Shown: positions 32,327 through 49,993 of the stretch, piece after piece
Numbering within the stretch: the first letter of the stretch is position 1
How the letters are laid out: the number at the start of each line of letters is the position of its first letter
Assembly: GCA_039808845.1 (NCBI GenBank)
Contig: JBDHTS010000001.1
Coordinates: 1-49,993 of the forward strand
Origin: Alphaproteobacteria bacterium
Lineage (GTDB): Bacteria; Pseudomonadota; Alphaproteobacteria; Micavibrionales; Micavibrionaceae
Reading direction: 5' to 3'
Length of the DNA stretch: 49,993 bases
The notes under the pieces: model-generated
Seen by the model: only the letters and a program-made list of their open reading frames with translations
Databases searched by the model: none
Told to the model about the DNA's origin: nothing
Position numbers and translations under genes: made by a program

Positions 32327-32334
32327 GACAGACC

Positions 32335-32563
32335 CTTGATGCGTTTCACGCCCGTCTTCGAAGACAAGATGGTTGATTTCATCAGCCAGCTGGCCGTAAT
32401 CGAGAAAAGCCCGTGACGGTCGAGGATCTGGCCGCCGAAGAGGATGAAGAGTCCTATCTGGAACGGAAGAAGGGTGGCAAATCTAAGGAAAAAACCACGA
32501 AATCAAAGAATAAAACCGAAAACCCATCAAAAAAGGCCGATTCCAAAGCTGCTAAAAAATAAA
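32335..32563 (+). pseudogene. Orphan duplicated 3' end of tig (last ~70 codons) carrying a 1-nt frameshift
   Basis: It aligns with tig at 31050-31277 at roughly 85% identity: ...gtcttcgaagacaagatggttgatttcatcagccagctggcc...gaagaggatgaagagtcctatctggaacggaagaagggtggcaaa.... A 1-nt deletion after atcgag creates a TGA. It has its own Lys-rich tail and TAA at 32561-32563. Confidence 0.8.
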
Positions 32564-32635
32564 AATTGACTCCAGCCATGGATTAACATTACCTTAATTT
32601 GAATGACAATATGAAAATTATAAAGAGGAACAGAA

Positions 32636-33226
32636 ATGGTTGCAGAAAAAATTAGAAATGCACTCACCGGCGCGGTTCTGGCTGGAGGAGTGGCGGTAAC
32701 GCCTGTCGTTGATGCCCGTGCTGAGTCTGTGAATCCTACGGGGAATATTTTAAAAGATACGTTGTCTGTAGTTCCTGCCGCTCTTCAAAACGCGGCCGAC
32801 CTCGTATGCGGACCGGGAGGTTATCCCGATCCCAAGGCGGTTGATTTGTTCTTAGGCGAAATAATGTGGGCGCAAAAGGAACAAGGAACGGAGGTCTCAC
32901 AAGAAGCTGGGATCTCAAGGGGCTCCTTATTGAGCGCATTCCCCGCAACTGCTTCGGCGATTGATGGTCTGAGGGCTCGTCTTGACGCGATTGTGGGGGG
33001 AGACCCTCGAATCCAAGCCCTCGAAAATCATGGCTCGCTTGATCCCAAGCGGCCTATGGATAACTGGCTCTTGGTTGATAAGGCCATGCATGCCGTATGC
33101 GACCATAGTGACGAACTCATCGGGGCTGTTCGTGAAACTATAGATGGTCTCGACACGGATAAAATTGGACATGAGCTGGGTCTGAGCAGGCCCACCGCGC
33201 CAAGACCGGCGCCCGGTGTTTCATAA
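32636..33226 (+). CDS. Secreted orphan protein (196 aa)
   Basis: Good SD (agagga) and a signal-peptide-like N-terminus (ALTGAVLAGGVAVTPVVDARA). I recognise no family. Confidence 0.6.
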   Translation: MVAEKIRNALTGAVLAGGVAVTPVVDARAESVNPTGNILKDTLSVVPAALQNAADLVCGPGGYPDPKAVDLFLGEIMWAQKEQGTEVSQEAGISRGSLLSAFPATASAIDGLRARLDAIVGGDPRIQALENHGSLDPKRPMDNWLLVDKAMHAVCDHSDELIGAVRETIDGLDTDKIGHELGLSRPTAPRPAPGVS

Positions 33227-33265
33227 CTGTGAAGTGTACGCGATTTTACAGTTTTTATTTGTGCT

Positions 33266-33355
33266 CTTAAACAAACCGTATCCCTGTGATACGGTTTGTT
33301 CGTCTTTTTATTCTGGTAAACGGAGCGAGAGCGCAGCATGTACGAATGTGGCCCA
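33266..33355 (+). repeat. Orphan duplicate of the clpP upstream hairpin/leader plus the first clpP codons
   Basis: cttaaacaaaccgtatccctgtgatacggtttgttcgtctttttattctggtaaacggagcgagagcgcagcATGTACGAAtgtggccc aligns at about 80% identity with 34971-35063. It reads MYECGP then a stop. Confidence 0.8.
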
Positions 33356-33460
33356 TAGCGGGCCCTTGAATTTCCCTGTCTATTTTCATCTTTTTGGAAA
33401 ATATTGACAAGAAAAGCATGAAAGCTTAATGTTAATTATATGTAAAAACATAGATCATTT

Positions 33461-34858
33461 ATGATTTTGATAACAGATGCTATGAGATATCTCCGTTATC
33501 CAGACGCCGAACTCTCAGGCGAGCCTCCATTATTCTTTTCCACTATTTCATCCCGGCTCGACATTCTGGGCAGGAGGCTTGATCAAGCCGAGGCAGCCAA
33601 TAGGGATTATAAAGAAGAGAACAACTCTTCCATTTCGCCGTCCGATGCAATACGGGCGGATTTTCCCATACTGGATTTTCTTGAGGATGGCGCTTATCCG
33701 GCTGTCGTTATTATAAGCACGGATGATCTTGCCGCATTCCGTGAAAATGTACCGGAGGCTGAACAAGAGGAAAATTTCAAGAGGCACCTTATAAGCAATG
33801 GTTTCAATGAAGCGGAGGCGGACAAAATCGCCAAAAGCGTTTCTGAATATATGAAAAGCATTCAGAGCGACATATCCTCCGTCACTTTGACGTCTTCGGA
33901 TATGTCAAGGCCCATCGTTATTATGAAGGAATTCTCGGATAAAGAAGATCTCGTCTTCAGGGCGACAGGAAAAAGAGGGTGGATCAACCTACCGGGGAAT
34001 ATTGAGGATTATAACAATTTTAGCCTGCTGCATGAACTTGCGCATGCCAAAAGCCCAAGGGAACGCCATGGCGAGCGTTACGCCGATCAAGATGCGGCAA
34101 AAGAATATCTGAAATTATATTTGCAGGGGAAACAGGAGAGCCCCGACGTTCCTTACGCCTTCCGCGCCTTAAGGATTTTGAAGGCGGTGGAAACTCCCTT
34201 GGGGACATTGGATGAACATCTGGTGGCATTTTTGTCCGTTCTTCCGGGCGAAAAGCCTCATGGCATAAACCCCGAAACTTTCTCCAGAGCGATTAACGAT
34301 GCAGACATGAAAATCGCCATGGAAGTCGGAAAAGACCGTATGACCGAAGACGATGCTTATATATCTGCGGTCGACAGGTTGCTGGAAAAGATGAACAGCC
34401 CGAAATTTATCGATAAATACGGATCGCTCAAAGCTGAAGTCATTGAAAAAGTCCGGGAAGCGATGGGCGCTCATGATATGAAGTCTCTAAAGGGATTTAT
34501 TGCGCTTCTTCCTGAAGAACTGCGGAGAAGCTTTCAAGAGAGCATTCCCATGTCGTATGCTCTGGAAGGTTACAGGGCGCTGTCAGAACAACCTGAATTA
34601 AGATATGCCCTTGCGAAGAAATTTCTGGACCAGAGCCGATTTGACGATCCTGCCCAGAGATATTACATTGAAAAATTCCTGGATGCCGCGCAAAGATACG
34701 CTGCCGATTATTATAAAGTTCCAGAGGAAGACCGTAAATCTCAAACGCCCTATGCCGACGGAGAAATATCGCTGGCCGGTTTAAGCGCAGAGTTGTCGGC
34801 GCAGCCGGATCACAGAATGCCAGCCCAACAGGCTCCCGTTCCGGCCTTTCCGCAGTAA
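33461..34858 (+). CDS. Orphan protein with a single HExxH motif, candidate zinc metallopeptidase (465 aa)
   Basis: Low-GC ORF with SLLHELAHAKS at aa 188-198 (HELAH = nt 34031-34045). It has no signal peptide and no obvious SD. A plausible promoter lies upstream: TTGACA 33404-33409, 17 nt, TAATGT 33427-33432. Confidence 0.6.
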   Translation: MILITDAMRYLRYPDAELSGEPPLFFSTISSRLDILGRRLDQAEAANRDYKEENNSSISPSDAIRADFPILDFLEDGAYPAVVIISTDDLAAFRENVPEAEQEENFKRHLISNGFNEAEADKIAKSVSEYMKSIQSDISSVTLTSSDMSRPIVIMKEFSDKEDLVFRATGKRGWINLPGNIEDYNNFSLLHELAHAKSPRERHGERYADQDAAKEYLKLYLQGKQESPDVPYAFRALRILKAVETPLGTLDEHLVAFLSVLPGEKPHGINPETFSRAINDADMKIAMEVGKDRMTEDDAYISAVDRLLEKMNSPKFIDKYGSLKAEVIEKVREAMGAHDMKSLKGFIALLPEELRRSFQESIPMSYALEGYRALSEQPELRYALAKKFLDQSRFDDPAQRYYIEKFLDAAQRYAADYYKVPEEDRKSQTPYADGEISLAGLSAELSAQPDHRMPAQQAPVPAFPQ

Positions 34859-34970: not shown

Positions 34971-35045
34971 CTTGAACAAACCGCATCCACGCGATACGGT
35001 TTGTGTGTCTTTGATTCCTGTAAACCGAGCAAGAGCGCAGCCTCC
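34971..35045 (+). promoter_or_regulatory. Native clpP upstream hairpin/leader (counterpart of 33266-33337)
   Basis: cttgaacaaaccgcatccacgcgatacggtttgtgtgtctttgattcctgtaaaccgagcaagagcgcagcctcc immediately precedes the clpP ATG. It contains the aaccg.atc/gatacggtt hairpin. Confidence 0.55.
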
Positions 35046-35699
35046 ATGTACGAACGCGACCCGTTAGAAGTCTATAACAATACCCTGGTTCCGATGGTCA
35101 TCGAGCAGACCAACAGGGGCGAGCGGTCTTATGACATTTATTCGCGGCTGCTGAAGGAGCGCATCATCTTCCTGACGGGCGGGGTCAACGACCATGTGTC
35201 GAGCCTGATCTGCGCACAGTTGCTGTTCCTGGAGTCGGAGAACCCGAAGAAGGATATCGCGTTTTACATCAACTCGCCGGGCGGCGTTGTGACGTCGGCG
35301 CTCGCCATGTACGACACGATGCAATACATCAAGCCCGACGTTTCCACGGTCTGCACGGGGCAGGCGGCTTCCGCCGGGTCGCTGCTGCTGACCGCCGGCG
35401 CGGCCAACAAGCGGTATTCGCTGCCGCATTCCCGGATCATGATCCACCAGCCGCATGGCGGCGCGCAGGGGCAGGCGTCCGATATCGAGATCCAGGCGCG
35501 GGAGATCCTGCGTCTTCGCGCCAAGCTGAACGAGATTTATGTCAAGCATACGGGCCAGAAGCTGAACGCCATCGAGAAAGCCATGGACCGCGACAATTTC
35601 ATGTCCGCCGAGGAAGCCAAGGCATTCGGACTGATCGATCATGTGGTCGAGGCGCGCCCGGATGCGCTGGCGCCGGCGGCTGAGCCTGAGAAGAAGTAG
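35046..35699 (+). CDS. clpP: ATP-dependent Clp protease proteolytic subunit
   Basis: I prefer the ATG at 35046 ([43 protein letters not shown]). The catalytic-Ser context is [11 protein letters not shown] and the His context is MIHQP. Confidence 0.95.
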
Positions 35700-36097: not shown

Positions 36098-38521
36098 ATG
36101 ATCGGATTGTCTTCCTCAAACCGCGACCTGCCGCTTCCCGTTCTTCCACTTCGGGACATTGTCGTTTTTCCGCATATGATCGTTCCCCTGTTCGTCGGGC
36201 GCGAGCGGTCGGTGCGCGCGCTGGAACAAGTGGTCAATGCAGGCAAGCAGATCCTGCTGGTCACCCAGAAATCGCCGTCGCAGGACGATCCGGCGTCCGG
36301 CGACCTGTATGGCGTCGGCACGCTGGGCACGATCCTGCAGCTCCTGAAACTGCCGGACGGCACGGTCAAGGTTCTGGTCGAGGGGAACCGCCGCGTCAGC
36401 ATCAGGGAATACAGCCCGCGGCAGGAATACCTTGAAGCCGGCTATGAGGATATCAAGGACCTGACCGTCCGCAACGACGATCTGGACGCGCTGGCGCGCA
36501 CGGTGGCGACCCAGTTCGAGCAATACGTCAAGCTGAACAAGAAGATCCCGCCGGAAGTCATCGTCTCCGTCAACCAGATCGAAGAACCCGCGAAACTGTC
36601 CGACACGGTCGCGGCGCATCTGGCGCTGAAAATCGAGGACAAGCAGAAGCTGCTGGAAGCCGCCAACACGGCGGAGCGGCTGGAGCACATCTTCGGCTTC
36701 ATGGAAGGAGAAATCGGCGTCCTGCAGGTCGAGAAGCGCATCCGCAACCGCGTCAAGCGGCAGATGGAGAAGACCCAACGCGAGTATTACCTGAACGAAC
36801 AGATGAAGGCGATCCAGAAGGAACTCGGCGACGGCGAGAACGCGCTCGACGAGATGGAGGAACTCGCCAAGAAGATCGCCGAGACCGGCCTGTCCAAGGA
36901 GGCGAGGGAAAAAGCCGACCATGAACTGAAGAAACTGAAGCAGATGAGCCCGATGTCGGCGGAAGCGACTGTCGTGCGGAATTATCTGGACTGGATCCTG
37001 TCGCTGCCGTGGGCGAAGCGCACGCGCGTCAAAAAGGATATCAAGGCGGCGAAAAAGATTCTCGACCAGGACCATTTCGGACTGGAAAAGGTGAAAGAGC
37101 GCATTCTTGAATACCTGGCCGTGCAGCAGCGGACGAAGAAGATCAAGGGGCCGATCCTGTGCCTCGTCGGCCCGCCCGGCGTCGGCAAGACGTCGCTGGG
37201 ACAGTCCATCGCGAAGGCGACCAACCGCAATTTCGTGCGCATGTCTTTGGGCGGCGTGCGCGACGAAAGCGAGATCCGCGGCCACCGCCGGACCTATATC
37301 GGCGCGCTGCCGGGCAAGGTCATCCAGGGCATGAAGAAGGCCAGTTCCGGCAACCCCTTGTTCCTGTTGGACGAGGTGGACAAGCTGGGGAACGACTGGC
37401 GCGGCGACCCGAGCGCCGCGCTGCTGGAAGTGCTCGATCCCGAACAGAACGGCACGTTCAACGACCACTATCTCGAACTGGACTATGACCTGTCGGACGT
37501 GCTGTTCATCTGCACGGCCAACACGACGGCGACCCTTCCGCGGCCCTTGCTGGATCGTATGGAGATCATCCGCGTGTCAGGCTATACCGAGGACGAGAAG
37601 CTGGAGATCGTGAAACGCCACCTGCTGCGCAAGCAGACGGAGGCGGCGGGCCTGAAAAGAGGCGAGTTCGGCATCAACGACGCCGCCGTGCGCGACCTGA
37701 TCCGTTATTACACCCGCGAGGCGGGCGTGCGGAACCTGGAGCGCGAGATCGCCAACCTCTGCCGCAAGGCGATCAAGGAGATCCTGATGCGGGGCCGCAA
37801 GGAAGTCCGCGTCACGCCGCGCAACCTGGAGAAATACGCAGGCGTCCGCAAGTTCCATTACGGCGCGGCGGAGGAGCAGGACAAGGTCGGCGTCGTCAAC
37901 GGCCTGGCCTATACCGAGTTCGGCGGCGACCTGCTGTCGATCGAGGCGGTGACCATGCCGGGCAAGGACGGCAAGGTCACGACCACGGGCAACCTGAAGG
38001 AAGTGATGAAGGAATCCATCGTGGTCGCCGAAATGCTGATCAAATCGCGCGCGGCGCAGTTCGGGATAAGGCACAGCGAACTGAACAAGACGTCGGTCCA
38101 CGTGCACGTTCCGGAAGGGGCGACGCCCAAGGACGGCCCCTCGGCGGGCGCGGCGATGGTGACGGCGATCGTCTCGGCCCTGACGGGCATCGAGATCCGG
38201 CGCGACGTCGCGATGACGGGCGAGATCAACCTGCGCGGCTATGTCACCGGCATCGGCGGCCTGAAGGAAAAGCTTCTGGCGGCGCTGCGCGGCGGCATCC
38301 GCACCGTGCTGATCCCGAAAGACAACGAGAAGGATCTGGCCGAAATTCCCGACAAGGTGAAGAAGGGGCTGAAGATCATTCCCGTCAACCGCATCGAAGA
38401 GGTTCTGGCCAATGCGCTCACGCGTATTCCCGATCCTGTGCGCATCGAAAAGGATACGGATATCGAGGCGATCCCCACGCAAACGGGCGATGGCGTCGCG
38501 GGCGATGTCATCAGGCACTGA
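36098..38521 (+). CDS. lon: ATP-dependent Lon protease (LonA)
   Basis: 807 aa: N-terminal LPVLPLRDIVVFPHMIVPLFVGRERS, Walker A GPPGVGKTS, Walker B LFLLDEVDK, and the protease Ser context PKDGPSAGAAMVTA. Confidence 0.97.
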   Translation: MIGLSSSNRDLPLPVLPLRDIVVFPHMIVPLFVGRERSVRALEQVVNAGKQILLVTQKSPSQDDPASGDLYGVGTLGTILQLLKLPDGTVKVLVEGNRRVSIREYSPRQEYLEAGYEDIKDLTVRNDDLDALARTVATQFEQYVKLNKKIPPEVIVSVNQIEEPAKLSDTVAAHLALKIEDKQKLLEAANTAERLEHIFGFMEGEIGVLQVEKRIRNRVKRQMEKTQREYYLNEQMKAIQKELGDGENALDEMEELAKKIAETGLSKEAREKADHELKKLKQMSPMSAEATVVRNYLDWILSLPWAKRTRVKKDIKAAKKILDQDHFGLEKVKERILEYLAVQQRTKKIKGPILCLVGPPGVGKTSLGQSIAKATNRNFVRMSLGGVRDESEIRGHRRTYIGALPGKVIQGMKKASSGNPLFLLDEVDKLGNDWRGDPSAALLEVLDPEQNGTFNDHYLELDYDLSDVLFICTANTTATLPRPLLDRMEIIRVSGYTEDEKLEIVKRHLLRKQTEAAGLKRGEFGINDAAVRDLIRYYTREAGVRNLEREIANLCRKAIKEILMRGRKEVRVTPRNLEKYAGVRKFHYGAAEEQDKVGVVNGLAYTEFGGDLLSIEAVTMPGKDGKVTTTGNLKEVMKESIVVAEMLIKSRAAQFGIRHSELNKTSVHVHVPEGATPKDGPSAGAAMVTAIVSALTGIEIRRDVAMTGEINLRGYVTGIGGLKEKLLAALRGGIRTVLIPKDNEKDLAEIPDKVKKGLKIIPVNRIEEVLANALTRIPDPVRIEKDTDIEAIPTQTGDGVAGDVIRH

Positions 38522-40213: not shown

Positions 40214-40288
40214 GGGCGTTTAGCTCAGTGGTAGAGCACCTCGTTTACACCGAGGGTGCCGGGAGTTCGACCCTCTCAACGCCCACCA
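40214..40288 (+). tRNA. tRNA-Val (anticodon TAC), CCA encoded
   Basis: Acceptor stem gggcgtt/aacgccc, anticodon arm cctcg-TTTACAC-cgagg; 75 nt. Confidence 0.92.
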
Positions 40289-40307
40289 TCTTTCCCCGGT
40301 CTGTGTA

Positions 40308-40865
40308 TTACATCCCGCCGAGTTTCAGCAGGTTGCCGGGGTTTAAATAATCGAAGATCGTTTTGCTGGATGTCTTGTGAACCGCGCCGCCGGTGACGAT
40401 CGGGGCTTCGAACAGAACGCCGTTCTGGAAGACAAGCGTCACGTTGTAATCGTAACCGTCTTCATCGGTGCGGATGCGGATCAGGGAGGCAAATCCATGC
40501 TCCTTCTCCACCTTTTTGTAATTGAAACGGTAACCGTAGAGCGATTGCAGGAAACGGCTCTGTTCGTCCTGGCCGATCTTGCCGTCACGGAATTCCACCG
40601 AGCTGCTGCCGTACAGGGAGATCAGGATCTCGTTGCGTTCCAGCCTGTCCATGTCTTTTTCCTGACGGCCCAGAACGGTAAAAACATCGGCCTGCGGCAT
40701 ACCGGGGCGCAGGCCGCGCAGGCGGTCCATCAGATCGTCGGGCGTCTTGTATATGGACCTGTTGACGGTCTCGTCGCTGCCGGGCAATGCGATGGCCCCC
40801 GCACACCCTGTCAAAAGGACAAGGCCCGCCGTCAGAATAAGGGCGGTTCGCCGCCAGCCGCTCAT
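40308..40865 (-). CDS. Lipoprotein with a SmpA/OmlA (BamE-like) segment
   Basis: I prefer the start at CAT 40863-40865, giving MSGWRRTALILTAGLVLLTGC (lipobox). GMPQADVFTVLG is BamE-like. Confidence 0.65.
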   Translation of the reverse strand: MSGWRRTALILTAGLVLLTGCAGAIALPGSDETVNRSIYKTPDDLMDRLRGLRPGMPQADVFTVLGRQEKDMDRLERNEILISLYGSSSVEFRDGKIGQDEQSRFLQSLYGYRFNYKKVEKEHGFASLIRIRTDEDGYDYNVTLVFQNGVLFEAPIVTGGAVHKTSSKTIFDYLNPGNLLKLGGM

Positions 40866-40997
40866 GTCGCGCCACACTTTATTATTATGGCAAAAATGGC
40901 TGAAAAACGCCACAAAAGCCGATGCTGCAACGCGGTTTTATAGATTGAACGGGCGGTCAAGTTATGCTTTGATCCGCCACGATCTTCAAACAGGATC

Positions 40998-41072
40998 GGG
41001 CACATAGCTCAGCGGGAGAGCACACCCTTCACACGGGTGGGGTCGCAGGTTCAATCCCTGCTGTGCCCACCA
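40998..41072 (+). tRNA. tRNA-Val (anticodon CAC), CCA encoded
   Basis: Acceptor stem gggcaca/tgtgccc, anticodon arm caccc-TTCACAC-gggtg; 75 nt. Confidence 0.92.
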
Positions 41073-42826: not shown

Positions 42827-42903
42827 GCGGGCGTAGTTCAGTTGGTTAGAACGCATCCCTGTCACGGATGAGGTCGCGGGTTCAAGTCCCGTCGCTCGCG
42901 CCA
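42827..42903 (+). tRNA. tRNA-Asp (anticodon GTC), CCA encoded
   Basis: Acceptor stem gcgggcg/cgctcgc, anticodon arm catcc-CTGTCAC-ggatg; 77 nt. Confidence 0.92.
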
Positions 42904-42955
42904 TTGGTTAACAAGACGTGGCTTTCGCCTAAAATTGTACGGATTAATGGCCGGA

Positions 42956-42992
42956 CCTGACCTTGCGTATTGCAAGGGTCAGGATCTTTTTT
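42956..42992 (+). terminator. Rho-independent terminator after tRNA-Asp
   Basis: cctgaccttgc-gtat-gcaag(g)gtcagg (one bulged G) followed by atctttttt. Confidence 0.75.
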
Positions 42993-43087
42993 AATACCAA
43001 AACGCCTGATTTCAACACATCCGTATGCGGCACAGGCCTTGCTGAACAGCTCTCCGGTATTTTCATTGCTACCGGAGGGGTTTTGTT

Positions 43088-45505
43088 ATGGCCATTCAAT
43101 CCGCCGCGCTCGATTTCAATCCCGGCGCTGTCAAGCTCGATGCCGATCTTTACCAGGTCGAAGATATTCACGGCATAACGGAAGGGTTGTCCGGCTCCGG
43201 CAACCTGAATTATCTGGTTCTGCAATCCGGGCAGACGGACGAAATTCGCCGCGATGCCGATCCGTTCAACATGCGCGAAGGCAATCTCTGGTTTTCAAAC
43301 GGCGCCGCGGCGCTGACCGAACGGACGCCGCAGAGCATCCATACCGGCGCACAGGGCGGCGATGCGTCCGGCATCCTATCGGACGGGCGTGCAGGCGGCA
43401 TCGGCGTCGATCTTCAGAACGCACGGGCGATTTCGGAACTGTCGCATGGGAATGCCGGATCCCCGCATTCCTATAATTCGGCCGTCGAGCATCAGGAGAA
43501 TGTCCCGAATTTCCGTGGCGGCGGCTCAAATGAACTGAACAGCCTGATCGAGCGTCTGGGGAATGGCACGAACGGGACATCCGGCGCGAACGGCGCGGAC
43601 GGTAAAAGCGCGGGCGCGCAGGATGGCCGGGACGGTCATGACGGTAACGACGGACATGATGGCCGCGACGGACGCAACGGAACTGGCGATCCCGGTCCGG
43701 GACCGGGTCCCGGCGACAACGGCGGGACTGATCCCGGAGACACGGACCTTCATGCCGATGCAGACACGCCTATCGGCAGCGTGACCCTTGACGTCCTGCT
43801 CGATCCGGTCGAACAGCTGGTCGGTGATATCGACATCAATGCGGGCGCACAGGTCAGCCTTGCCCCGCTGGCGCAGGGGCATCTGCCGACCATCGGCGTG
43901 AATGCCGATGCGCTGCTGCTCGGCACGCATCTTGGTATTAATACGACCACCCTGACCAACCCGGTGACGAACAGCGTCAACACGCTGCTGGATACGCTGG
44001 ACCCGATCATCAATCCCGTACTGAATCCGGTCATGAGCCCCTTGCCGCAGCCGCTGACCGACCTGATCAACGGATTTAACGGCGACGGCGATACCGATCT
44101 GGCGATCAATCCGGCCGCAGATCTTCTGGGCCTGCCGATCGCCGTCGGCGGTATCGCGGTGCCGCTGGACCCGGTCGAATCGCTTCTGGGAGACATCGAC
44201 CTGAACCTCAATCCGGCTCTGGGCGTGCTGGGCGGGGGACATCCGGTCGATCTCGGTCTGAATGGCGTTTTCAACGGCCAGGCCTTCGATTTCGACCTGC
44301 CTGGCGCCACAGGTCCACTGGCCGATCTGCTCGCGCCTCTCGACGGGCTCGGCGACCATGGCGCGGCAGAGGCCGTGAACGGACTGATCGACGATCTGGA
44401 CGCGGCGACGGGCCTGGAAGACACGCTTGATGACGCGCTCGATCCGGCGGCTGGTCTCCTGGACGATGTCCAGAGCGGCGCCGCCGGCCTGACCGGTCAT
44501 ATCCTTCAGCCGGTTGTTGATATTGCCGGAAGCATAACCGGCGACGTGGCGCAGTCCGTAACGGACACCGGGGTTATGGATCATCTGGATCATTTTCTGA
44601 CTCCCCTGGCCGACATGGTGGTTGATTTTGCCGATCAGGCGCAGGATCACCTTTCAGGAACCGCGAATGACACGCTGGCGGACCTTCATGACACGGTACA
44701 GGACGTTACGCCATCGGGTTCCGATATCGTCGGCGCCGTCCAGGACGCTGTTGACAGCCTTGTGGAGCACGTTGTGGATGCGTCCGGAGGCGTTACGGAC
44801 CCGCAAAGCATCCTGGCTGGCCTGACGCAACAGGCCGCGGAGCTTCTGACCGGCGATCCGGTGGAGGGGATTCATGGCGGGCTGGACGATGTCGCAGCGG
44901 GCGGCATCGGCAGCATCGGGGATATCCTGACGGGAGGCTCCCCGAACGGGGATACCGATCTGACCTTCCATACCGGAATCGACGCCGCCGGCACGATGGC
45001 GGAGGATCTGGGCGGCGCGGTCACGCTCGACCCGGTCGAGGCCATCGCGGGCGATATCGACATCGACGTGGATCTTGGCGCGAACGCCCTCGGCCATGCA
45101 TCAGCCCTGGGCGCCGATGCGGGCGTCGCGGCGCATGCCGATCCGATGGAAGGGCTGCTCAACGATCTTGCAAACAGCCTCTTGAATGACGGCGGCACGC
45201 AGGGAGGAGCAAACCCTCTTACGCCTTCATTGTCCGCTGTCACCGTAGAGGCCGGCGCGGGCCTTGATGCCATCGCCGGCCTCCCGTCTTCTCCGGGAGG
45301 CGCAATATTGTGGCCGGAAGCCGGAATAGGGGATGGGTTGAGCCAAGCGGCCGTCAATACGGCGACCGGTCTGGGGCAGACTGCCAATAACACCGTGGCG
45401 GCGGCCTTGCCCGATCCGGTCGGTCATGTCTCAGAGGGACTCAGTGCGGTTGTAGACCACAGCCATGCCACGGTTCATCACGCGCTGGGCGGATTGTTCG
45501 GATAA
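43088..45505 (+). CDS. Acidic, Cys-free repeat protein, putative type I secretion passenger (805 aa)
   Basis: SD ggagg lies 8 nt upstream. By my count there are about 93 Asp against 2 Lys, and no Cys. It has a collagen-like G-x-y run (aa ~160-200) and three GDTDL...LDPVExhhGDIDh modules. Exporter genes follow after 30 nt. Confidence 0.7.
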   Translation: MAIQSAALDFNPGAVKLDADLYQVEDIHGITEGLSGSGNLNYLVLQSGQTDEIRRDADPFNMREGNLWFSNGAAALTERTPQSIHTGAQGGDASGILSDGRAGGIGVDLQNARAISELSHGNAGSPHSYNSAVEHQENVPNFRGGGSNELNSLIERLGNGTNGTSGANGADGKSAGAQDGRDGHDGNDGHDGRDGRNGTGDPGPGPGPGDNGGTDPGDTDLHADADTPIGSVTLDVLLDPVEQLVGDIDINAGAQVSLAPLAQGHLPTIGVNADALLLGTHLGINTTTLTNPVTNSVNTLLDTLDPIINPVLNPVMSPLPQPLTDLINGFNGDGDTDLAINPAADLLGLPIAVGGIAVPLDPVESLLGDIDLNLNPALGVLGGGHPVDLGLNGVFNGQAFDFDLPGATGPLADLLAPLDGLGDHGAAEAVNGLIDDLDAATGLEDTLDDALDPAAGLLDDVQSGAAGLTGHILQPVVDIAGSITGDVAQSVTDTGVMDHLDHFLTPLADMVVDFADQAQDHLSGTANDTLADLHDTVQDVTPSGSDIVGAVQDAVDSLVEHVVDASGGVTDPQSILAGLTQQAAELLTGDPVEGIHGGLDDVAAGGIGSIGDILTGGSPNGDTDLTFHTGIDAAGTMAEDLGGAVTLDPVEAIAGDIDIDVDLGANALGHASALGADAGVAAHADPMEGLLNDLANSLLNDGGTQGGANPLTPSLSAVTVEAGAGLDAIAGLPSSPGGAILWPEAGIGDGLSQAAVNTATGLGQTANNTVAAALPDPVGHVSEGLSAVVDHSHATVHHALGGLFG

Positions 45506-45535: not shown

Positions 45536-47227
45536 ATGACGTTCATAAGAGAGGGGGCCGCGCGGGGCGGCCGGTCCAGCCTGCTGCTGGCGACGATGGC
45601 GATCAGCGTCCTGTCGCTGGCCCTGCCTGTGATGACGCTGCAGGTCTATGACCGCATCCTGCCCAATCCGGGGTCGGGAACGCTGGCCGTCCTGGCGGCG
45701 GGGGTGTGCGTGGCCGTGGCGCTGGAATGCTGCCTGCGGCTGGCGCGCGGATATATCATCAACTGGAACGGCGCGGCGTTCGACCACAGGATGTCGTATG
45801 AAGCCCTGGGCCATCTCCTGCATTCTGATCTGGCCGCGGCCCGCAAAATCAGCCCCGGCGAATACCTGAACCGCCTGTCCTCCATCGGCAGGATGAAGGA
45901 TTTTTTCAGCGGCAGCACCGCCGTGATCCTGTTCGAATTGATTCTCGTTCCTGTCTATTTCGCATTGATCGCCTATATCGCGGGCCCTCTTGTGCTGGTG
46001 CCTGCCGTTGTCCTGGGAGGGTTTTCAGTGCTGGCGTTCGTTTATGGACGGAAGCTGAGGGACAATCTGGAACGCCGCAACCGTGCCGACGACCAGCGTT
46101 ACGATTTCCTTCTGGACGCCCTGACCGGCATGCATACCCTGAAATCGTTCTGCCTGGAGGACGCGTTCACGCGGCGTTACGAGTGGATTGAGAAGCATTC
46201 GGCGCTGATCAACTACGACACGTCGCGCGACGCGGCGGCCAGTTTCAACGCGGCTAACGTCTTCGGGCACCTGATGTCCCTAATGATCATCGGCATCGGC
46301 GTGGAACGCGTGATCCATGGAGAGATGACGTCGGGCGCCCTGATCGCCGCGACTTTGCTGGCCGGGCGGATCATGCAGCCCGTCCAGCGCGCGCTGGGCC
46401 TGTGGGTGCGGTATCAGGATTACAAGCTGTCGAAAGCCAAGGCCGGGGAATTGTTTTCCCTGCCGACCGTAAAACGCGCAAGACGGCCTGAGCCGGCAAA
46501 AAGAGGTCAGATCCGGATCAAGGGCGTGTCATTCCGGCGCGGACCTGAGGATGGCGGGACGTTTGAAAATATCGGGCTGCATCTCAATGCGGGGGAAACC
46601 GTCCGGATCAGCGGCGGCAACGGCACGGCCAAAAGCCATCTGCTGGGCCTGATCGCCGGGCTGTATGCACCGGATTCGGGGGAGGCGCTGGTCGACGGGC
46701 TTGATCCGCTCCGCTATCCAAACGGGACTTTGCGCCGCCATGTCGGCCTTCTGAAGACCAAGGGCGAAGTGTTCCGGGGCACGATCCGCGACAACCTGAC
46801 CAGCTTTGGCAGCATCAGCGAAAAAGAAGCGCGCCGCACGACCCGCCTGCTGGGGATCGAGCGCGAGGTGGCGCGCCTGCCGCGCGGCTTCGATACCATG
46901 ATCGGCGAAAACGAGGGCGGAACCATTTCGCCCGGCTTGCAGCAGCGTATCGCCATCGCACGTGTCCTGGCCTGGGATCCGGGCATCATCCTGTTCGACA
47001 ACGCCGACCGCAACCTGGACCGCAACGGCTATCGCGCCGTGTACAGGCTGCTGGTTCATCTGAAGGGCCACAAGGCGCTGGCCCTGGTGACGGAAGACCC
47101 GAATTTCACCGGCCTGGCCGACAGGCAGCTCTGGCTTGAGCCCGGCGGGCTGCGTCCGATCGTCGCGCCGTCTTCCCGCCCGGTCGCCGCCGGGACCAGA
47201 GCCAGAGCGGCGGAGGTCGAGATATGA
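45536..47227 (+). CDS. Type I secretion ABC exporter subunit (TMD+NBD, no N-terminal accessory domain) with degenerate Walker A/B
   Basis: 563 aa. The TMD begins LPVMTLQVYDRILPN (T1SS PrtD/HlyB-like). NBD motifs are GGNGTAKS, ISPGLQQRIAIARVL, IILFDN and LVTEDP. Confidence 0.8.
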   Translation: MTFIREGAARGGRSSLLLATMAISVLSLALPVMTLQVYDRILPNPGSGTLAVLAAGVCVAVALECCLRLARGYIINWNGAAFDHRMSYEALGHLLHSDLAAARKISPGEYLNRLSSIGRMKDFFSGSTAVILFELILVPVYFALIAYIAGPLVLVPAVVLGGFSVLAFVYGRKLRDNLERRNRADDQRYDFLLDALTGMHTLKSFCLEDAFTRRYEWIEKHSALINYDTSRDAAASFNAANVFGHLMSLMIIGIGVERVIHGEMTSGALIAATLLAGRIMQPVQRALGLWVRYQDYKLSKAKAGELFSLPTVKRARRPEPAKRGQIRIKGVSFRRGPEDGGTFENIGLHLNAGETVRISGGNGTAKSHLLGLIAGLYAPDSGEALVDGLDPLRYPNGTLRRHVGLLKTKGEVFRGTIRDNLTSFGSISEKEARRTTRLLGIEREVARLPRGFDTMIGENEGGTISPGLQQRIAIARVLAWDPGIILFDNADRNLDRNGYRAVYRLLVHLKGHKALALVTEDPNFTGLADRQLWLEPGGLRPIVAPSSRPVAAGTRARAAEVEI

Positions 47228-49437
47228 TTTCCGCATCCGCCAGAAAAAGATTCGGCATGGCCGCCAGGCCGCAGGCGTCGAACGAGCAGCCGGCGGATAC
47301 CGTCAGCCGCCTGCATGAGCGTCTGCGCGAAACGGTCTGGCATGCCGTCCGCGCGGACAACGCCTGGAGCCGCGCCCTGTGCGCGCTGGTCCTAGTCAAG
47401 GCGCCACACATGCGGCAATACGCCGTGGCCGACGCCATGCCGTACGGCGAACAGCTTATCGACAGCGATTATGCCATCGAAGCCATGGCGAACCTTGGCT
47501 ATACGTGCAGCGTCCTGACGATGGAGCCGCGGGATCTCGATCCGCGCCTGCTGCCCGCGCTGTTCATTCCGGCATCGCGCCCCGATCATCCCTGCATCCT
47601 GCTGGACCGGGGCAGGATGTATGACGGGGCGCGCGGCCGTATCGTCAAAATACCGTCCAATGCCGGGCCGGGGCAGGCCATCCTGTTCCGCATGTATGAC
47701 GAGGAGCACGATCCCACCTCCAAATCCGCGCGGGCCAATACGGGCTGGCAGTGGTTCCGGACGTTGTTCAAACGCTTCAAGCCTGCCCTGGTCCGCATTT
47801 TCGCCATGGGCATGGTGCTGAATCTGATGGCGCTTGCGACGCCGTTGTTCATCATGATCGTGTACGACCGCGTGATTTCCACAAGCACGCCGTCCATCCT
47901 GCCCATGCTGGCGGCGGGGGCCGCGGCGTCTATCGGGCTGGAATGGATCCTGCGCGTCCTACGATCGCGCCATCTGTCCTGGCTGGCGACGCGGCTGGAC
48001 AATATCGTGAACAACAAGGTGTTCAGCCATCTGATGCATATGCCGCCCGCCCTGCTGGAAGGAGCGTCGGTGCAGAGCCAGATCGCGCGTCTGAAGACAT
48101 ATGAATCCGTCCGCGATTTCTTTTCCAGTCCCATATTCCTGTCGATGATCGAACTGCCGTTCACGGTGCTGGCGCTCATCTTCGTCGGCGCGGTGGCGGG
48201 GCCGCTGGTGCTGGTGCCGCTTGGTGGCGTCTGCCTCTACCTGCTCCTGTTTTTCCTCGTCTGGAGGAAGGTCCGCGTCTCCCTGAAAATCGCGGCGAAG
48301 GCGGGATCGGTGAAGCAGCGCTATATCCTCGACACGCTGATCAAGCTGGAGGATATCCGCGCGGGCGGGCTGCCCGATATCTGGCAGAAGAAATACCGCG
48401 ACATCAGCGGGCGGGAGGCCGCGGCGCATTTTCATCTGAACTGGCTGGGGCTGGTGGGCGAGACGGCGGCGAACGCCATCACCGTCCTGTCCGCCGTCGC
48501 CATCGTCGGGTTCGGGGCGGAACGTGTGTGGAGCGGGGCGATGAGCACCGGCGCGCTGGTCGCCTCCATGATCCTTGTCTGGCGTGTGCTCAATCCGTTT
48601 TACAGCCTGTGCACGATGGTGCCGCGCATCGACCAGCTGCGGAATTCCATCCGCCAGATCAACCAGCTGATGGATCTGGACACGGAAGAGCAGACGAGCC
48701 GCGCCCTGGCCAGGCCGGGGCCGTTGCAGGGAGGCATCAGCTTCGCCAATGTCGGCATGCGTTACGGCGCGGGCGATCCGGTTTTCGCGGGCCTGAGCTT
48801 CCAGGCGCAGCCGGGGCAGATCGTCGCCATCACGGGCGAGAACGGCGCGGGCAAGTCCACGTTGCTGAAGCTGGCGAAAGGGCTTTACCAGGCGCCTGCC
48901 GGCAGCGTCAGGCTCGACGGGTTCGACGTGCGCCAGCTCGATCCGGTGGCGCTGCGCCGCCGCATTGCCTATATTCCGCAAAACCCAACGTTCTTCCACG
49001 GCACGATCGAGGAAAACCTGCGCTTCGCCAATCCGCTGGCCACGCGCAGGGAAATAGAGATGGCGCTGGCGCAGGCCGACGCGCTCAAGGCCATTCTGGA
49101 TCTTCCGCGCGGGCTGGACACCGTGATCGGGGGCGAAGCGGGGATGCAATTGTCTTCGGATCTCGCGCTGCGCCTGTCTCTGGTGCGGGCCTATCTGCAC
49201 GACGCGCAGATCCTGCTGGTCGACGAATTGCCGAATTCCCTTCTGTCGGAGACGGCCGGGAAATTCCTGATGGAAGGATTGATCCGCAACCGCCGGGACC
49301 GGACGGTGCTGATGGTCACCTATCGCGCCGACATGCTGCGCTTCGCCGACCAGATCGTCTGGCTGCGCCTTGGTGAAGCACCGATGGCGGGCGAGCGGGA
49401 TTTCATGCTGCGCCAACTGAAGCAAGGCAACTGGTAA
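47224..49437 (+). CDS. Type I secretion ABC exporter subunit with N-terminal C39-like domain, canonical Walker A/B and degenerate signature motif
   Basis: 737 aa; ATGA overlap with the upstream ABC gene. The N-terminal ~170 aa contain Cys53 and His122 (RALCALVLV, RPDHPCILLD). The TMD begins ATPLFIMIVYDRVI. NBD motifs are GENGAGKST, IPQNP, LSSDLALRL, ILLVDE and MVTYR. Confidence 0.8.
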   Translation: MISASARKRFGMAARPQASNEQPADTVSRLHERLRETVWHAVRADNAWSRALCALVLVKAPHMRQYAVADAMPYGEQLIDSDYAIEAMANLGYTCSVLTMEPRDLDPRLLPALFIPASRPDHPCILLDRGRMYDGARGRIVKIPSNAGPGQAILFRMYDEEHDPTSKSARANTGWQWFRTLFKRFKPALVRIFAMGMVLNLMALATPLFIMIVYDRVISTSTPSILPMLAAGAAASIGLEWILRVLRSRHLSWLATRLDNIVNNKVFSHLMHMPPALLEGASVQSQIARLKTYESVRDFFSSPIFLSMIELPFTVLALIFVGAVAGPLVLVPLGGVCLYLLLFFLVWRKVRVSLKIAAKAGSVKQRYILDTLIKLEDIRAGGLPDIWQKKYRDISGREAAAHFHLNWLGLVGETAANAITVLSAVAIVGFGAERVWSGAMSTGALVASMILVWRVLNPFYSLCTMVPRIDQLRNSIRQINQLMDLDTEEQTSRALARPGPLQGGISFANVGMRYGAGDPVFAGLSFQAQPGQIVAITGENGAGKSTLLKLAKGLYQAPAGSVRLDGFDVRQLDPVALRRRIAYIPQNPTFFHGTIEENLRFANPLATRREIEMALAQADALKAILDLPRGLDTVIGGEAGMQLSSDLALRLSLVRAYLHDAQILLVDELPNSLLSETAGKFLMEGLIRNRRDRTVLMVTYRADMLRFADQIVWLRLGEAPMAGERDFMLRQLKQGNW

Positions 49438-49465: not shown

Positions 49466-49993
49466 ATGATCAAATCCATGACACAAAGCGAGCGGCAGTT
49501 CCGCCACCTGACCCAGTCGGAAAAGCTGGAGGAGTCGGAAGACCCGATCCTCGTCCGCATGACCCTGGCGGCAATCAGCGCCTGCATCGTCGGGTTCGTG
49601 TTGTGGGCGTCCGTCACTAACGTCAACGAAGTGGCGCGGACGCCCGGCGAAATCGTGCCGCAGGGGTTTCAGCAGACCGTCCAGCATCTGGAGGGCGGGA
49701 TCGTCCGTCAGATCCTGGCGCGGGAAGGGCAGGAAGTGCAGAAAGGCCAGATCCTCGCCGTTCTCGATGGAAACGGCGCGCAGCAGGACATGAAGCGCGC
49801 GGCGGCTCATCAGGTGGCGCTTGAACTGCAAAAGGAGCGCCTGCGGGCCTATATCGACGGGCGCCAGCCGGATTTCCGGCGCTTTATCGGACTCGCTGAT
49901 CCGAAAATGATCCAGGACCAGAAAGACGCGTTCGCGGCGATGATGGATGCGCGCGGCAAGGAAAAGGATATTATCCGCGACCAGATCAGTCAG
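49466..49993 (+). CDS. HlyD-family type I secretion membrane-fusion (periplasmic adaptor) protein, N-terminal 176 codons (runs off the window end)
   Basis: Absent from the ORF track because it is open-ended. My translation from the ATG at 49466 reads MIKSMTQSERQFRHL...LVRMTLAAISACIVGFVLWASVTNVNEVARTPGEIVPQGFQQTVQHLEGGIVRQILAREGQEVQKGQILAVLDG..., i.e. a TM anchor plus the lipoyl-like motif typical of HlyD/PrtE. Confidence 0.8.
   Translation, partial: MIKSMTQSERQFRHLTQSEKLEESEDPILVRMTLAAISACIVGFVLWASVTNVNEVARTPGEIVPQGFQQTVQHLEGGIVRQILAREGQEVQKGQILAVLDGNGAQQDMKRAAAHQVALELQKERLRAYIDGRQPDFRRFIGLADPKMIQDQKDAFAAMMDARGKEKDIIRDQISQ

What the first reader, a model, noticed from the sequence alone, without database searches (positions are those of the whole stretch)
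43088..45505. Putative secreted 805-aa acidic protein built from unrecognised GDTDL...LDPVExhhGDIDh modules and a short collagen-like run, with no RTX array
The ORF has a good SD and no Cys. By my count it has about 93 Asp against 2 Lys, the composition expected of a Ca-binding type I secretion passenger. Two ABC exporter genes and an HlyD adaptor follow after 30 nt. However, it lacks the hallmark RTX nonapeptide array; I find only one GGxGxD-like unit (GGIGVDLQN, aa 103-111). Two other features stand out instead. (a) There is a run of G-x-y triplets (GTN GTS GAN GAD GKS ... GRD GHD GND GHD GRD GRN) ending in PGPGPGPG, at aa ~160-210 (nt ~43565-43726). (b) There are three copies of a module GDTDL-x(16-21)-LDPVE-x-h-h-GDIDh-[ND], at aa 217-251, 334-373 and 621-660 (nt 43736-43840, 44087-44206, 44948-45067). 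These are separated by Leu/Asp/Pro-rich low-complexity stretches such as LDTLDPIINPVLNPVMSPLPQPLTDL and DDLDAATGLEDTLDDALDPAAGLLDD. I do not recognise this module as any named repeat family. It could be a new Ca-binding or adhesive repeat.
Basis: partly seen in the sequence, partly recalled or inferred. Interest (0 to 1): 0.8.

Follow-up and report, generated by a model that had tools for sequence, protein, structure and literature searches.

The report
New non-RTX type I secretion cargo
This gene encodes an extremely acidic, uncharacterised protein that always sits in front of its own export pump in Micavibrio-like bacteria; it matters because it is built from a new repeat and ends in a fixed five-residue tail, not the usual RTX repeats.

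Summary

The protein belongs to an unnamed family of about 200-260 clusters at 50% identity. All named members are MAGs labelled Micavibrio, Alphaproteobacteria or similar, and all are annotated as hypothetical. Pfam, NCBIfam, PHROGs, PDB sequence searches and Foldseek recognise nothing except collagen-type G-x-y runs in some members.

The ~49-aa module is real. It scores 39-50 bits against at most 8.3 bits in 1000 shuffles, and there are 323 copies in 82 of 83 homologues.

In all 24 related loci with downstream DNA, the gene is followed directly by the same two ABC genes. An HlyD-type adaptor follows in 22 loci, and a TolC gene lies upstream in 11. ABC1 has a degenerate ATP site in every orthologue, so the pump is an asymmetric heterodimer. 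A conserved sigma-54-type promoter precedes the gene.

Best reading: a dedicated, non-RTX type I secretion cargo. Ca2+-driven folding and a fibre or adhesin role are inferred, not shown.

The parts
43028..43043 (+). Sigma-54-type -24/-12 promoter element, CGGCAC-AGGCC-TTGCT (GG-N10-GC), 45 nt before the start codon.
   Evidence: This is the only match to TGGCAC-N5-TTGCW with at most 1 mismatch in the whole window. It lies inside a 20-nt island that is identical to the L001 sequence, within otherwise diverged intergenic DNA. Similar elements lie upstream in L004, L007, L008 and L014.
43074..43080 (+). Shine-Dalgarno sequence GGAGGGG.
   Evidence: Read directly from the sequence.
43088..45505 (+). 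Cargo gene: 805-aa acidic protein of an unnamed family.
43133..43273 (+). N-terminal conserved box, aa 16-62. Family consensus: KLDADxYxAxDxDGVTESLxGSGNLN[YF]LxLQxxQTD..PF.
   Evidence: This is the best-conserved stretch in BLAST and in the alignments, with invariant L17, A19, D26, G36, G38 and Q46.
43565..43714 (+). Collagen-like G-x-[ND] run of 5 + 7 triplets (aa 160-200), followed by the PG repeat to aa 209.
   Evidence: Its position is conserved across the family (median start about aa 176). Pfam Collagen hits 14 of 51 relatives but not the query.
43733..43861 (+). Module 1, aa 216-258.
   Evidence: HMM score 38.6 bits. AF2 pLDDT is 84-91 for aa 220-320.
44084..44233 (+). Module 2, aa 333-382.
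   Evidence: HMM score 50.2 bits.
44945..45094 (+). Module 3, aa 620-669.
   Evidence: HMM score 48.4 bits.
45311..45502 (+). Conserved C-terminal region, the putative secretion signal: WPE (aa 742-744), LPDPVG..EGL (aa 774-785), a His/Gly-rich tail, and terminal GGLFG (aa 801-805, nt 45488-45502).
   Evidence: 160 of 206 family proteins end in GGLFG and 178 have a GLFG-like ending. The W[TPS][ED] and hP[DEN]P[VIL] motifs sit at conserved distances from the end.
45536..47227 (+). ABC1: 563-aa HlyB-family half-transporter with a degenerate nucleotide-binding domain.
   Evidence: Pfam, NCBIfam and PDB matches. Motif analysis.
47224..49437 (+). ABC2: 737-aa LssB-type half-transporter with canonical Walker A/B motifs and an extra ~170-aa N-terminal domain.
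49466..49993 (+). HlyD-type membrane fusion protein, N-terminal 176 aa only (cut by the window end).
   Evidence: Weak Biotin_lipoyl_2 hit in the fragment. The full-length orthologues in L001 and L013 hit HlyD_3.

Best explanation
The ORF encodes the dedicated cargo of its own type I secretion system.

Proposed sequence of events:

1. The gene is transcribed from a sigma-54-type promoter, probably as one unit with the pump genes.
2. The product has no Sec signal or membrane segment and carries about -100 net charge. It is likely to stay unfolded in the low-Ca2+ cytoplasm.
3. Its conserved C-terminal ~65 residues, ending in the near-invariant GGLFG-COOH, are recognised by an asymmetric ABC1/ABC2 heterodimer with an HlyD-type adaptor. 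Only ABC2 has a competent ATP site.
4. The chain leaves C-terminus first through a TolC-type channel.
5. Outside the cell, the ~49-aa Asp-rich modules fold. Their invariant residues are D3, D5, E32, G36, D37 and D39, and folding most likely involves binding Ca2+, which would play the role RTX repeats play elsewhere.
6. The G-x-[ND] run may form a short trimeric collagen-like stalk.
7. The highly conserved N-terminal box emerges last. It probably keeps the protein attached to the cell or to the apparatus, or mediates assembly. That would make the product an extracellular fibre or adhesin rather than a freely released toxin.

What is shown: the anatomy, the family, the conserved operon, the pump asymmetry and the promoter element.

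What is inferred: secretion itself, the signal function of GGLFG, Ca2+ binding, trimerisation, surface retention and the biological role.
For: Composition and motifs are as described.

Family size: 83-100 hits in the 5.8-billion-sequence set, and 195 clusters at E<=1e-30 (264 at E<=1e-10) among 1.84 billion representatives. All are hypothetical proteins from MAGs.

Operon: cargo-ABC1-ABC2 in all 24 loci with downstream DNA and a ~440-aa HlyD-type gene in 22, often with overlapping stop and start codons. A TolC-type OEP lies upstream in 11 loci. Both ABCs are HlyB/LssB/PrtD-type.

Pump asymmetry across 24 orthologue pairs:
- ABC1: Walker A is variable or destroyed, the catalytic Glu is mostly N/D/G, and there is no H-loop His. 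A conserved PPGLKQ replaces LSGGQ.
- ABC2: Walker A and the Walker B D-E are canonical, and the signature motif is degenerate.

C-terminal GGLFG is present in 160 of 206 proteins, with W[TP]E and hPDPVG..EGLG upstream at fixed distances.

Module: 323 copies, with six positions 98-100% invariant and an alternating h-(D/G) pattern.

Conservation peaks at the two termini and at the module cores.

The sigma-54 element is unique in the window and conserved with L001. NtrC-type activators adjoin 7 related loci.
Against: - There is no experimental evidence of secretion for any family member, and all carriers are uncultured.
- Ca2+ binding rests only on composition and invariant acidic positions. No known Ca-binding motif or fold was matched.
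- The AF2 monomer models are poor overall (mean pLDDT 54), so the fold, any trimer and the role of the N-terminal box are open.
- The G-x-y run is short, Pro-poor and absent (fewer than 4 triplets) from 61 of 205 members, so a collagen triple helix is uncertain.
- No TolC gene lies within the part of the operon seen in the window.
- The sigma-54 element was found upstream in only about 6-7 of 28 loci.
Confidence: 0.72

Rival explanations
1. The protein is exported by the same T1SS but released as a soluble exoprotein, such as a toxin or effector acting on prey or competitors. It would not be a cell-attached fibre or adhesin.
For: Many T1SS cargos are released toxins or enzymes (PMC3034196). 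Micavibrio is proposed to release T1SS proteins at the prey junction (PMC3189940). Nothing tested here shows retention.
Against: There is no enzymatic or pore-forming domain. The maximum 19-aa hydropathy is 1.59, and the predicted helices are acidic rather than hydrophobic. The pattern of conserved termini with a variable, repeat-number-polymorphic middle and a stalk-like G-x-y run of variable length is more typical of structural surface proteins.
Confidence: 0.25
2. It is an S-layer-type lattice protein exported by T1SS, analogous to Caulobacter RsaA. The N-terminal box would anchor it to LPS, and Ca2+ would mediate crystallisation.
For: The protein is acidic and Cys-free, has a conserved N-terminus, is exported via an adjacent ABC/MFP, and its size is within the 40-200 kDa range. 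All of these match the description of RTX S-layer proteins (PMC3034196).
Against: There is no sequence or profile similarity to any S-layer family or PDB entry, including RsaA. There are no RTX repeats. Tight regulation, shown by the sigma-54 promoter and the two-component genes in related loci, fits a constitutive abundant coat poorly. Much of the protein is predicted to be disordered or flexible.
Confidence: 0.12
3. It is a phage tail-fibre-like or prophage-derived protein whose adjacency to the pump is incidental.
For: G-x-y runs in some relatives hit PHROG tail-fibre families. One weak BFVD hit is to 'phage tail repeat like' at E=0.19.
Against: The PHROG hits cover only the G-x-y stretch, and the query has none. 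No phage genes are nearby; the neighbours are lon, hupB, ald, tRNAs and clpP. The linkage to the pump is invariant across 24 loci.
Confidence: 0.02
4. It is not exported at all. It would be an intracellular, intrinsically disordered polyanion, and the ABC/MFP genes would export something else.
For: Low AF2 confidence over half of the chain. No direct secretion data exist.
Against: Co-linearity is strict and translational coupling with ABC1 is frequent. The conserved extreme C-terminus is typical of a targeting signal. The acidic, Cys-poor, Lys-poor composition is typical of T1SS cargo. No alternative small-peptide gene lies in the operon.
Confidence: 0.04

Closest known systems
RTX-type T1SS substrates (HlyA, proteases, RsaA; Pfam PF00353 HemolysinCabind)
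   Same: It is a large, very acidic, Cys-free protein with no N-terminal signal peptide. It is encoded next to HlyB-type ABC and HlyD-type MFP genes, has a conserved uncleaved-looking C-terminal region, and carries Asp/Gly-rich repeats that could fold on Ca2+ binding outside the cell.
   Different: There is no GGxGxDxUx nonapeptide array: one isolated unit, and no PF00353 hit in 51 family members. The repeat here is a ~49-aa module (GDTDL…LDPVExhhGDIDh), scattered or in tandem in 2-7 copies. RTX signals are poorly conserved in sequence, whereas this family ends in a near-invariant GGLFG.
MARTX four-component T1SS (RtxB, RtxD, RtxE, TolC) of Vibrio
   Same: Two distinct ABC proteins plus one MFP are dedicated to one cargo, which is an atypical T1SS (PMC3034196).
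   Different: The gene order differs: cargo-ABC1-ABC2-MFP on one strand here, against divergent rtxHCA/rtxBDE operons. There are no rtxC or rtxH genes and no MARTX repeats. One ABC here is clearly catalytically degenerate. No homology between the cargos was detected.
Heterodimeric ABC exporters with one degenerate ATP site (TmrAB, TM287/288, BmrCD)
   Same: ABC1 lacks the catalytic Glu, the H-loop His and often Walker A. The partner ABC2 has a degenerate signature motif. Together they would give one consensus site and one degenerate site (PMC7756269 and PMC8277102 for the concept).
   Different: Both subunits here are HlyB/LssB-family T1SS transporters coupled to an MFP. ABC2 carries an extra N-terminal domain. 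The ABC1 signature is a conserved non-canonical PPGLKQ.
Bacterial and phage collagen-like proteins (BclA, Scl1/2, phage tail-fibre collagen motifs; Pfam PF01391)
   Same: A G-x-y run lies at a fixed position after a conserved N-terminal segment and varies in length between relatives (0-17 triplets). PF01391 hits 14 of 51 relatives.
   Different: The run in the query is short (5 + 7 triplets, interrupted), has no Pro, and has N/D/S in the Y position. The query itself does not reach any Pfam Collagen score. There is no C1q-like or other known trimerisation domain.
LapA-type T1SS adhesins with an N-terminal retention module
   Same: The cargo is exported C-terminus first, and its conserved N-terminus could stay in or at the TolC channel and hold the protein on the cell surface. 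The ABC partner has an extra N-terminal, C39-like-position domain.
   Different: No LapG/LapD genes are among the conserved neighbours. There are no BIg or RTX domains. The N-terminal box is only ~45 aa and is not predicted to be a globular plug. No sequence similarity was found.

Membership tests
RTX proteins (PF00353) | Tandem array of GGxGxDxUx nonapeptide repeats | tested here: not met
   Regex finds one GGxGxD, at aa 103. No HemolysinCabind hit at E<=0.01 in the query or at E<=0.1 in 51 relatives.
RTX proteins (PF00353) | Genetic linkage to a T1SS ABC transporter and MFP | tested here: met
Type I secretion substrates (functional class) | Encoded with a dedicated HlyB-type ABC, HlyD-type MFP and TolC-type OMP | tested here: met
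   ABC1/ABC2 match TIGR03375, TIGR01846 and TIGR01842, with HlyB as best or near-best PDB hit. MFP. OEP upstream in 11 related loci. No OMP gene is seen in the window itself.
Type I secretion substrates (functional class) | No N-terminal Sec/Tat signal, and targeting information in the C-terminal ~60 residues | tested here: inconclusive
   There is no hydrophobic N-terminus or TM segment. The C-terminal ~65 aa are conserved, with terminal GGLFG in 160 of 206 proteins. Function as a signal has not been demonstrated.
Type I secretion substrates (functional class) | Experimentally shown ABC/MFP-dependent export | not testable with these tools
   All carriers are MAGs, and no literature on the family was found.
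Collagen-like proteins (PF01391) | Uninterrupted G-x-y repeats recognised by the Collagen model | tested here: inconclusive
   The query has 5 + 7 triplets and no Pfam hit. 14 of 51 relatives hit PF01391, best E 2.5e-8. The Y position is N 38%, D 33%, S 15%, P 5%.
Collagen-like proteins (PF01391) | Formation of a trimeric triple helix | not testable with these tools
   Only monomer AF2 was available, and the region is modelled with pLDDT below 50.
Peptidase-C39 bacteriocin exporters (PCAT) and double-glycine leader cargos | Catalytic Cys/His in the N-terminal domain of the ABC | tested here: not met
   There is no invariant Cys or His in an alignment of 17 ABC2 N-terminal domains. PF03412 hits 1 of 17 at E=0.06. 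A PDB profile search found nothing.
LapA-type retained adhesins | LapG protease and LapD regulator in the locus, and an N-terminal retention module | tested here: not met
   The conserved neighbours are OEP, NtrC-type regulator, HK, REC-Hpt, REC-HATPase_c_2 and hybrid HK. There is no LapG/LapD.
MARTX-type two-ABC T1SS | Two different ABC proteins plus one MFP required for one cargo | tested here: inconclusive
   Two ABC genes are present in all 24 loci, with one MFP gene in 22. Requirement for both has not been tested. No MARTX-specific genes or repeats were seen.
Heterodimeric ABC exporters with a degenerate site | One NBD lacks the catalytic residues and the partner's signature motif is degenerate | tested here: met
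   ABC1: Walker A is variable or destroyed, the residue after the Walker B Asp is N/D/G in 19 of 24, and there is no H-loop His. ABC2: Walker A and D-E are conserved, and the signature is degenerate and variable.

The most novel reading that the evidence does not exclude
This may be a lineage-specific secretion module of Micavibrio-like (probably predatory) alphaproteobacteria, with three linked features.

1. A sigma-54 and two-component-controlled T1SS with an asymmetric heterodimeric ABC reads a sequence-defined signal, the invariant C-terminal GGLFG.
2. It exports a trimeric, collagen-stalked fibre built from a previously undescribed Ca2+-binding ~49-aa fold.
3. The fibre is held on the cell by its conserved N-terminal box and is used for contact with prey.
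Probability: 0.2. Interest if true: 0.8.

Novelty: new variant of a known kind. Interest (0 to 1): 0.6.

Why it matters
T1SS signals are notoriously undefined at the sequence level. Almost all large cargos studied so far depend on RTX repeats for Ca2+-ratcheted export.

This family has three unusual properties together:
- a near-invariant terminal pentapeptide;
- a different acidic repeat in place of RTX;
- a pump with only one competent ATP site.

It is therefore a natural system for asking how a T1SS recognises its cargo, and whether Ca2+-driven folding can be achieved by a non-RTX fold.

The family appears confined to Micavibrio-like genomes and is wired to sigma-54 and two-component regulators. 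That makes it a candidate cell-surface or prey-contact factor in a group whose predation mechanism is largely unknown.

It also gives annotators a definable new family. At present every member is labelled a hypothetical protein.

Tried and rejected
- **Domain libraries.** Pfam and NCBIfam on the query found nothing. Pfam on 51 relatives found only Collagen in 14, plus noise such as Baculo_PEP_C at E>=0.001. PHROGs hits were confined to the G-x-y stretch of relatives, with none for the query.
- **PDB profile search.** No hit below E=0.79.
- **Structure prediction.** AF2 of the query with a 51-sequence MSA gave mean pLDDT 54; only aa 220-320 were confident. AF2 of the tandem-module homologue P0020 with 76 sequences also gave mean pLDDT 54 and showed no regular solenoid.
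- **Foldseek.** Against PDB and BFVD, nothing scored below E=0.17. The fold could therefore not be classified, and the beta-roll or beta-helix idea is neither supported nor excluded.
- **N-terminal box search.** A profile search with the box alone, meant to find other architectures, returned only 7 short contig-end fragments.
- **C39 peptidase idea for the ABC2 N-terminal domain.** Rejected: no conserved Cys/His and no Pfam support.
- **HlyD query error.** My first tblastn HlyD query used the wrong frame (49467 instead of 49466), so the HlyDn rows should be ignored. The HlyD assignment rests. The 'up352' minus-strand ORF was likewise a shadow of the ald gene on the plus strand.
- **Literature.** Searches for Micavibrio plus T1SS, GGLFG, and Micavibrionales plus secretion found no description of this family.
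- **Not possible.** I could not test whether the cultured M. aeruginosavorus ARL-13 carries the family. I could not place the window's organism more precisely than a relative of an unclassified alphaproteobacterial MAG (L001).
Full report
**1. The observation**

The ORF 43088-45505 (+) is real and is the dominant reading frame of the region. Its translation has 805 residues with 93 Asp, 23 Glu, 2 Lys, 11 Arg, no Cys and 15.4% Gly, and a calculated pI of 4.05. That is a net charge of about -100. GGAGGGG lies 7 nt before the ATG.

The three GDTDL / LDPVE / GDID sets sit at aa 217/238/246, 334/360/368 and 621/647/655. There is one GGxGxD, at aa 103. G-x-y runs span aa 160-174 and 180-200 and are followed by PGPGPGPG.

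Downstream there is a 30-nt gap and then three genes:
- a 563-aa ABC half-transporter;
- a 737-aa ABC half-transporter that overlaps the first by 4 nt;
- from 49466, the start of an HlyD-type adaptor, cut by the window end.

The features are not chance. A module HMM built only from other proteins' copies scores the three query copies at 38.6, 50.2 and 48.4 bits, against at most 8.3 bits in 1000 shuffles. A 7-triplet G-x-y run occurs in 4 of 5000 shuffles.

**2. The family**

The protein has 83 relatives at E<=1e-3 in the 5.8-billion-sequence set and 100 at E<=1e-10 with a profile. An exhaustive profile search of 1.84 billion representatives gives 195 clusters at E<=1e-30 and 264 at E<=1e-10.

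Every named member is a 'hypothetical protein' from a MAG. The labels are Micavibrio, Alphaproteobacteria, Proteobacteria, Rhodospirillaceae or Pseudobdellovibrionaceae. The last is simply where NCBI files Micavibrio.

No Pfam, NCBIfam or PHROG family, PDB sequence or Foldseek target matches, apart from Pfam Collagen on the G-x-y run of 14 of 51 relatives.

The closest relative is 40% identical. It comes from an unclassified alphaproteobacterial MAG from a bioreactor, and its locus is syntenic with the window (lon, hupB, tRNA-Val x2, ald, tRNA-Asp, cargo, pump).

**3. Anatomy of the cargo**

Conservation along the query has five peaks.

(a) *The N-terminal box, aa 16-62.* Its consensus is KLDADxYxAxDxDGVTESLxGSGNLN[YF]LxLQxxQTD..PF. 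This is the best-conserved part of the family, 50-70% identical even between relatives whose remainder barely aligns.

(b) *The G-x-y run.* Across 205 family proteins it starts at a conserved position (median aa 176) and varies from 0 to 17 triplets. The Y position is N 38%, D 33%, S 15%, P 5%. This is a Pro-poor G-x-[ND] repeat of the kind also seen in phage tail-fibre collagen motifs.

(c, d) *The module cores.* Iterated HMM searches find 323 copies in 82 of 83 proteins, 2-7 per protein, and in tandem with a period of ~56-60 aa in some. The ~49-aa consensus is:

aGDTDLxL(D/G)h(D/G)h(D/G)hh(D/G)…hDhxLDPVExhhGDIDh(D/G)h(D/G)hxhDLL

D3, D5, E32, G36, D37 and D39 are 98-100% invariant. AF2 places beta-hairpins on the alternating h-(D/G) stretches and a short helix on DPVExhh. 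The region of module 1, aa 220-320, reaches pLDDT 84-91.

(e) *The C-terminus.* 160 of 206 proteins end in exactly GGLFG and 178 in a GLFG-like sequence. This is preceded by a Gly/His/Leu-rich tail, an hP[DE]P[VI]G..EGLG motif 30-40 residues from the end, and W[TP]E 54-64 residues from the end.

The protein has no Sec-type N-terminus and no membrane segment.

**4. The neighbourhood**

A scan of 185,579 species genomes returned 28 loci. In all 24 with downstream DNA, the cargo gene is followed directly by an ABC1-type gene of ~565 aa and an ABC2-type gene of ~735 aa. A ~440-aa MFP follows in 22 of them. Stop and start codons often overlap. The MFP is HlyD_3 by Pfam in L001 and L013.

Clustering all ORFs of these loci shows further conserved neighbours:
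- a TolC-type OEP, divergent upstream, in 11 loci;
- an NtrC-type sigma-54 activator with HK and REC-Hpt genes upstream in 7 loci;
- a REC + HATPase_c_2 protein after the MFP in 16 loci;
- a hybrid histidine kinase after that in at least 9 loci.

Both ABCs are HlyB/LssB/PrtD-type. HlyB is the best PDB hit of ABC1 and the best full-length bacterial hit of ABC2.

**5. The pump is asymmetric**

ABC1 is degenerate in the window and in all 23 aligned orthologues:
- Walker A is variable or destroyed (GGNGTAKS in the window; SSDNASSLD and SAAMPAALT elsewhere).
- The residue after the Walker B Asp is N, D or G in 19 of 24.
- The H-loop His is always D/E-D.
- The signature is a conserved, non-canonical PPGLKQ (ISPGLQQ in the window).

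ABC2 keeps GxxGxGK[ST] in 23 of 24 and the D-E pair in all 24. Its signature is degenerate and variable (LSSDL in the window), and its H-loop residue is mostly Tyr.

This is the pattern of heterodimeric ABC exporters with one consensus ATP site and one degenerate site.

ABC2 also carries a conserved ~170-aa N-terminal domain at the position of a C39 or C39-like domain. It has no invariant Cys or His and essentially no Pfam C39 signal, so it is not a leader peptidase. The only described T1SS with two ABC proteins that I could cite is the MARTX RtxB/RtxE system (PMC3034196).

**6. Regulation**

The single match in the whole window to TGGCAC-N5-TTGCW with at most 1 mismatch lies at 43028-43043, on the right strand, 45 nt before the ATG. 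It sits in a 20-nt block identical to L001, within intergenic DNA that otherwise aligns poorly.

Comparable elements precede the gene in L004, L007, L008 and L014, against a background of 7.6% of 500-nt windows. Together with the NtrC-type activators next to 7 loci, this points to sigma-54-dependent, signal-controlled expression.

A strong hairpin with a T-run at about 42953-42992 (-18.9 kcal/mol, z = -3.1) separates the gene from tRNA-Asp.

**7. Mechanism**

Shown here:
- a conserved cargo-pump operon;
- a cargo with T1SS-type composition and no other export signal;
- a conserved C-terminal region;
- a one-active-site heterodimeric pump;
- a sigma-54-type promoter element.

Inferred:
- The C-terminal ~65 residues, including GGLFG, are the secretion signal.
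- The chain is exported unfolded and C-terminus first.
- The Asp-rich modules fold outside the cell by binding Ca2+ and so substitute for RTX repeats.
- The G-x-[ND] run forms a short trimeric stalk.
- The N-terminal box, which emerges last, tethers or assembles the protein, giving a surface fibre or adhesin.

The profile of conserved ends around a variable, repeat-polymorphic middle favours a structural surface protein over a toxin. No enzymatic or hydrophobic pore-forming region exists. Even so, a released effector or an S-layer-type protein cannot be excluded.

I put about 0.85 on 'T1SS cargo' and about 0.4 on 'retained fibre or adhesin'.

**8. Comparison and novelty**

It works like an RTX-type cargo but fails the defining RTX test. 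It resembles MARTX only in having two ABCs. It resembles BclA, Scl and tail-fibre proteins only in the short G-x-y run, and LapA only in the idea of N-terminal retention.

I therefore file it as a new variant of a known kind: a non-RTX T1SS cargo family with a new repeat, a sequence-defined C-terminus and an asymmetric pump.

No paper in the searchable library describes it. The Micavibrio ARL-13 genome paper lists only RTX-type 'hemolysin-related' cargos.

**9. Limits**

- Both AF2 models are poor overall, so the fold is unclassified.
- All carriers are uncultured.
- The predatory lifestyle of the window's organism is assumed from the taxonomic labels of relatives, not shown.
- The window ends inside the MFP gene, so its downstream regulators and TolC are unknown.

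Noticed in passing
window 43028-43043 (+): A sigma-54-type -24/-12 element, CGGCAC-N5-TTGCT, lies 45 nt before the cargo ATG. It is the only such match in the window and sits in a 20-nt block identical to L001. A second, weaker GG-N10-GC (43056-43069) is not conserved in L001.
   Followed up: partly
window 45536-49437 (+); L001-L028: The two ABC genes form an asymmetric pair in all 24 orthologous operons. The ABC1 nucleotide-binding domain is degenerate but keeps a conserved PPGLKQ signature. ABC2 has canonical Walker A/B, a degenerate signature and mostly Tyr in place of the H-loop His.
   Followed up: yes
window 47224-47760 (+): ABC2 has a conserved ~170-aa N-terminal domain (W..CLCALVLALEP.CK.YRLLEALPY…LGYFSR…RL.PCLF). 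No Pfam or PDB match was found and no Cys or His is invariant. It is possibly a very diverged C39-like domain.
   Followed up: partly
L003 8314-9741 (-); L018 5752-9246; L013 9186-12892; L020 17480-21386: Related loci add further genes. A TolC-type OEP lies divergently upstream in 11 loci. An NtrC-type sigma-54 activator with HK and REC-Hpt genes lies upstream in 7. A REC + HATPase_c_2 protein follows the MFP in 16, and a hybrid histidine kinase follows that in at least 9. The window ends before the position where these would lie.
   Followed up: partly
window 42953-42992 (+): A strong hairpin with a T-run lies just after tRNA-Asp (42827-42903): -18.9 kcal/mol, z = -3.1. It is a likely intrinsic terminator that insulates the cargo operon. 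The consensus scanner missed it because of a bulge.
   Followed up: yes
window 43088-45505; family P0001-P0206: Lys is almost absent across the family (median 0.37%; 2 of 805 in the query), while Arg is tolerated. His is enriched just before the terminal GGLFG (for example HSHATVHHALGGLFG). No explanation has been tested. Protease resistance or metal binding are guesses.
   Followed up: no
window 40214-41072: Two tRNA-Val genes (tac and cac) flank a ~700-nt stretch. Its ORFs (for example 40308-40913 on the minus strand, 201 aa) have no Pfam or NCBIfam hit. The same arrangement is seen in L001.
   Followed up: no
window 31562-34858 (+): Three consecutive plus-strand ORFs (254, 196 and 465 aa) lie between trigger factor and clpP and have no Pfam hit. 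clpP (35001-35699) is followed directly by lon (36098-38521), with no clpX between them.
   Followed up: no
window 10054-14786 (-): An MprF-type lysyl-phosphatidylglycerol synthase (864 aa) lies next to a 713-aa protein with only a weak DUF4139 hit. Elsewhere the window holds ordinary chromosomal housekeeping genes (lptD, parE/gyrB-type, glnA, tig, recJ, hom).
   Followed up: no
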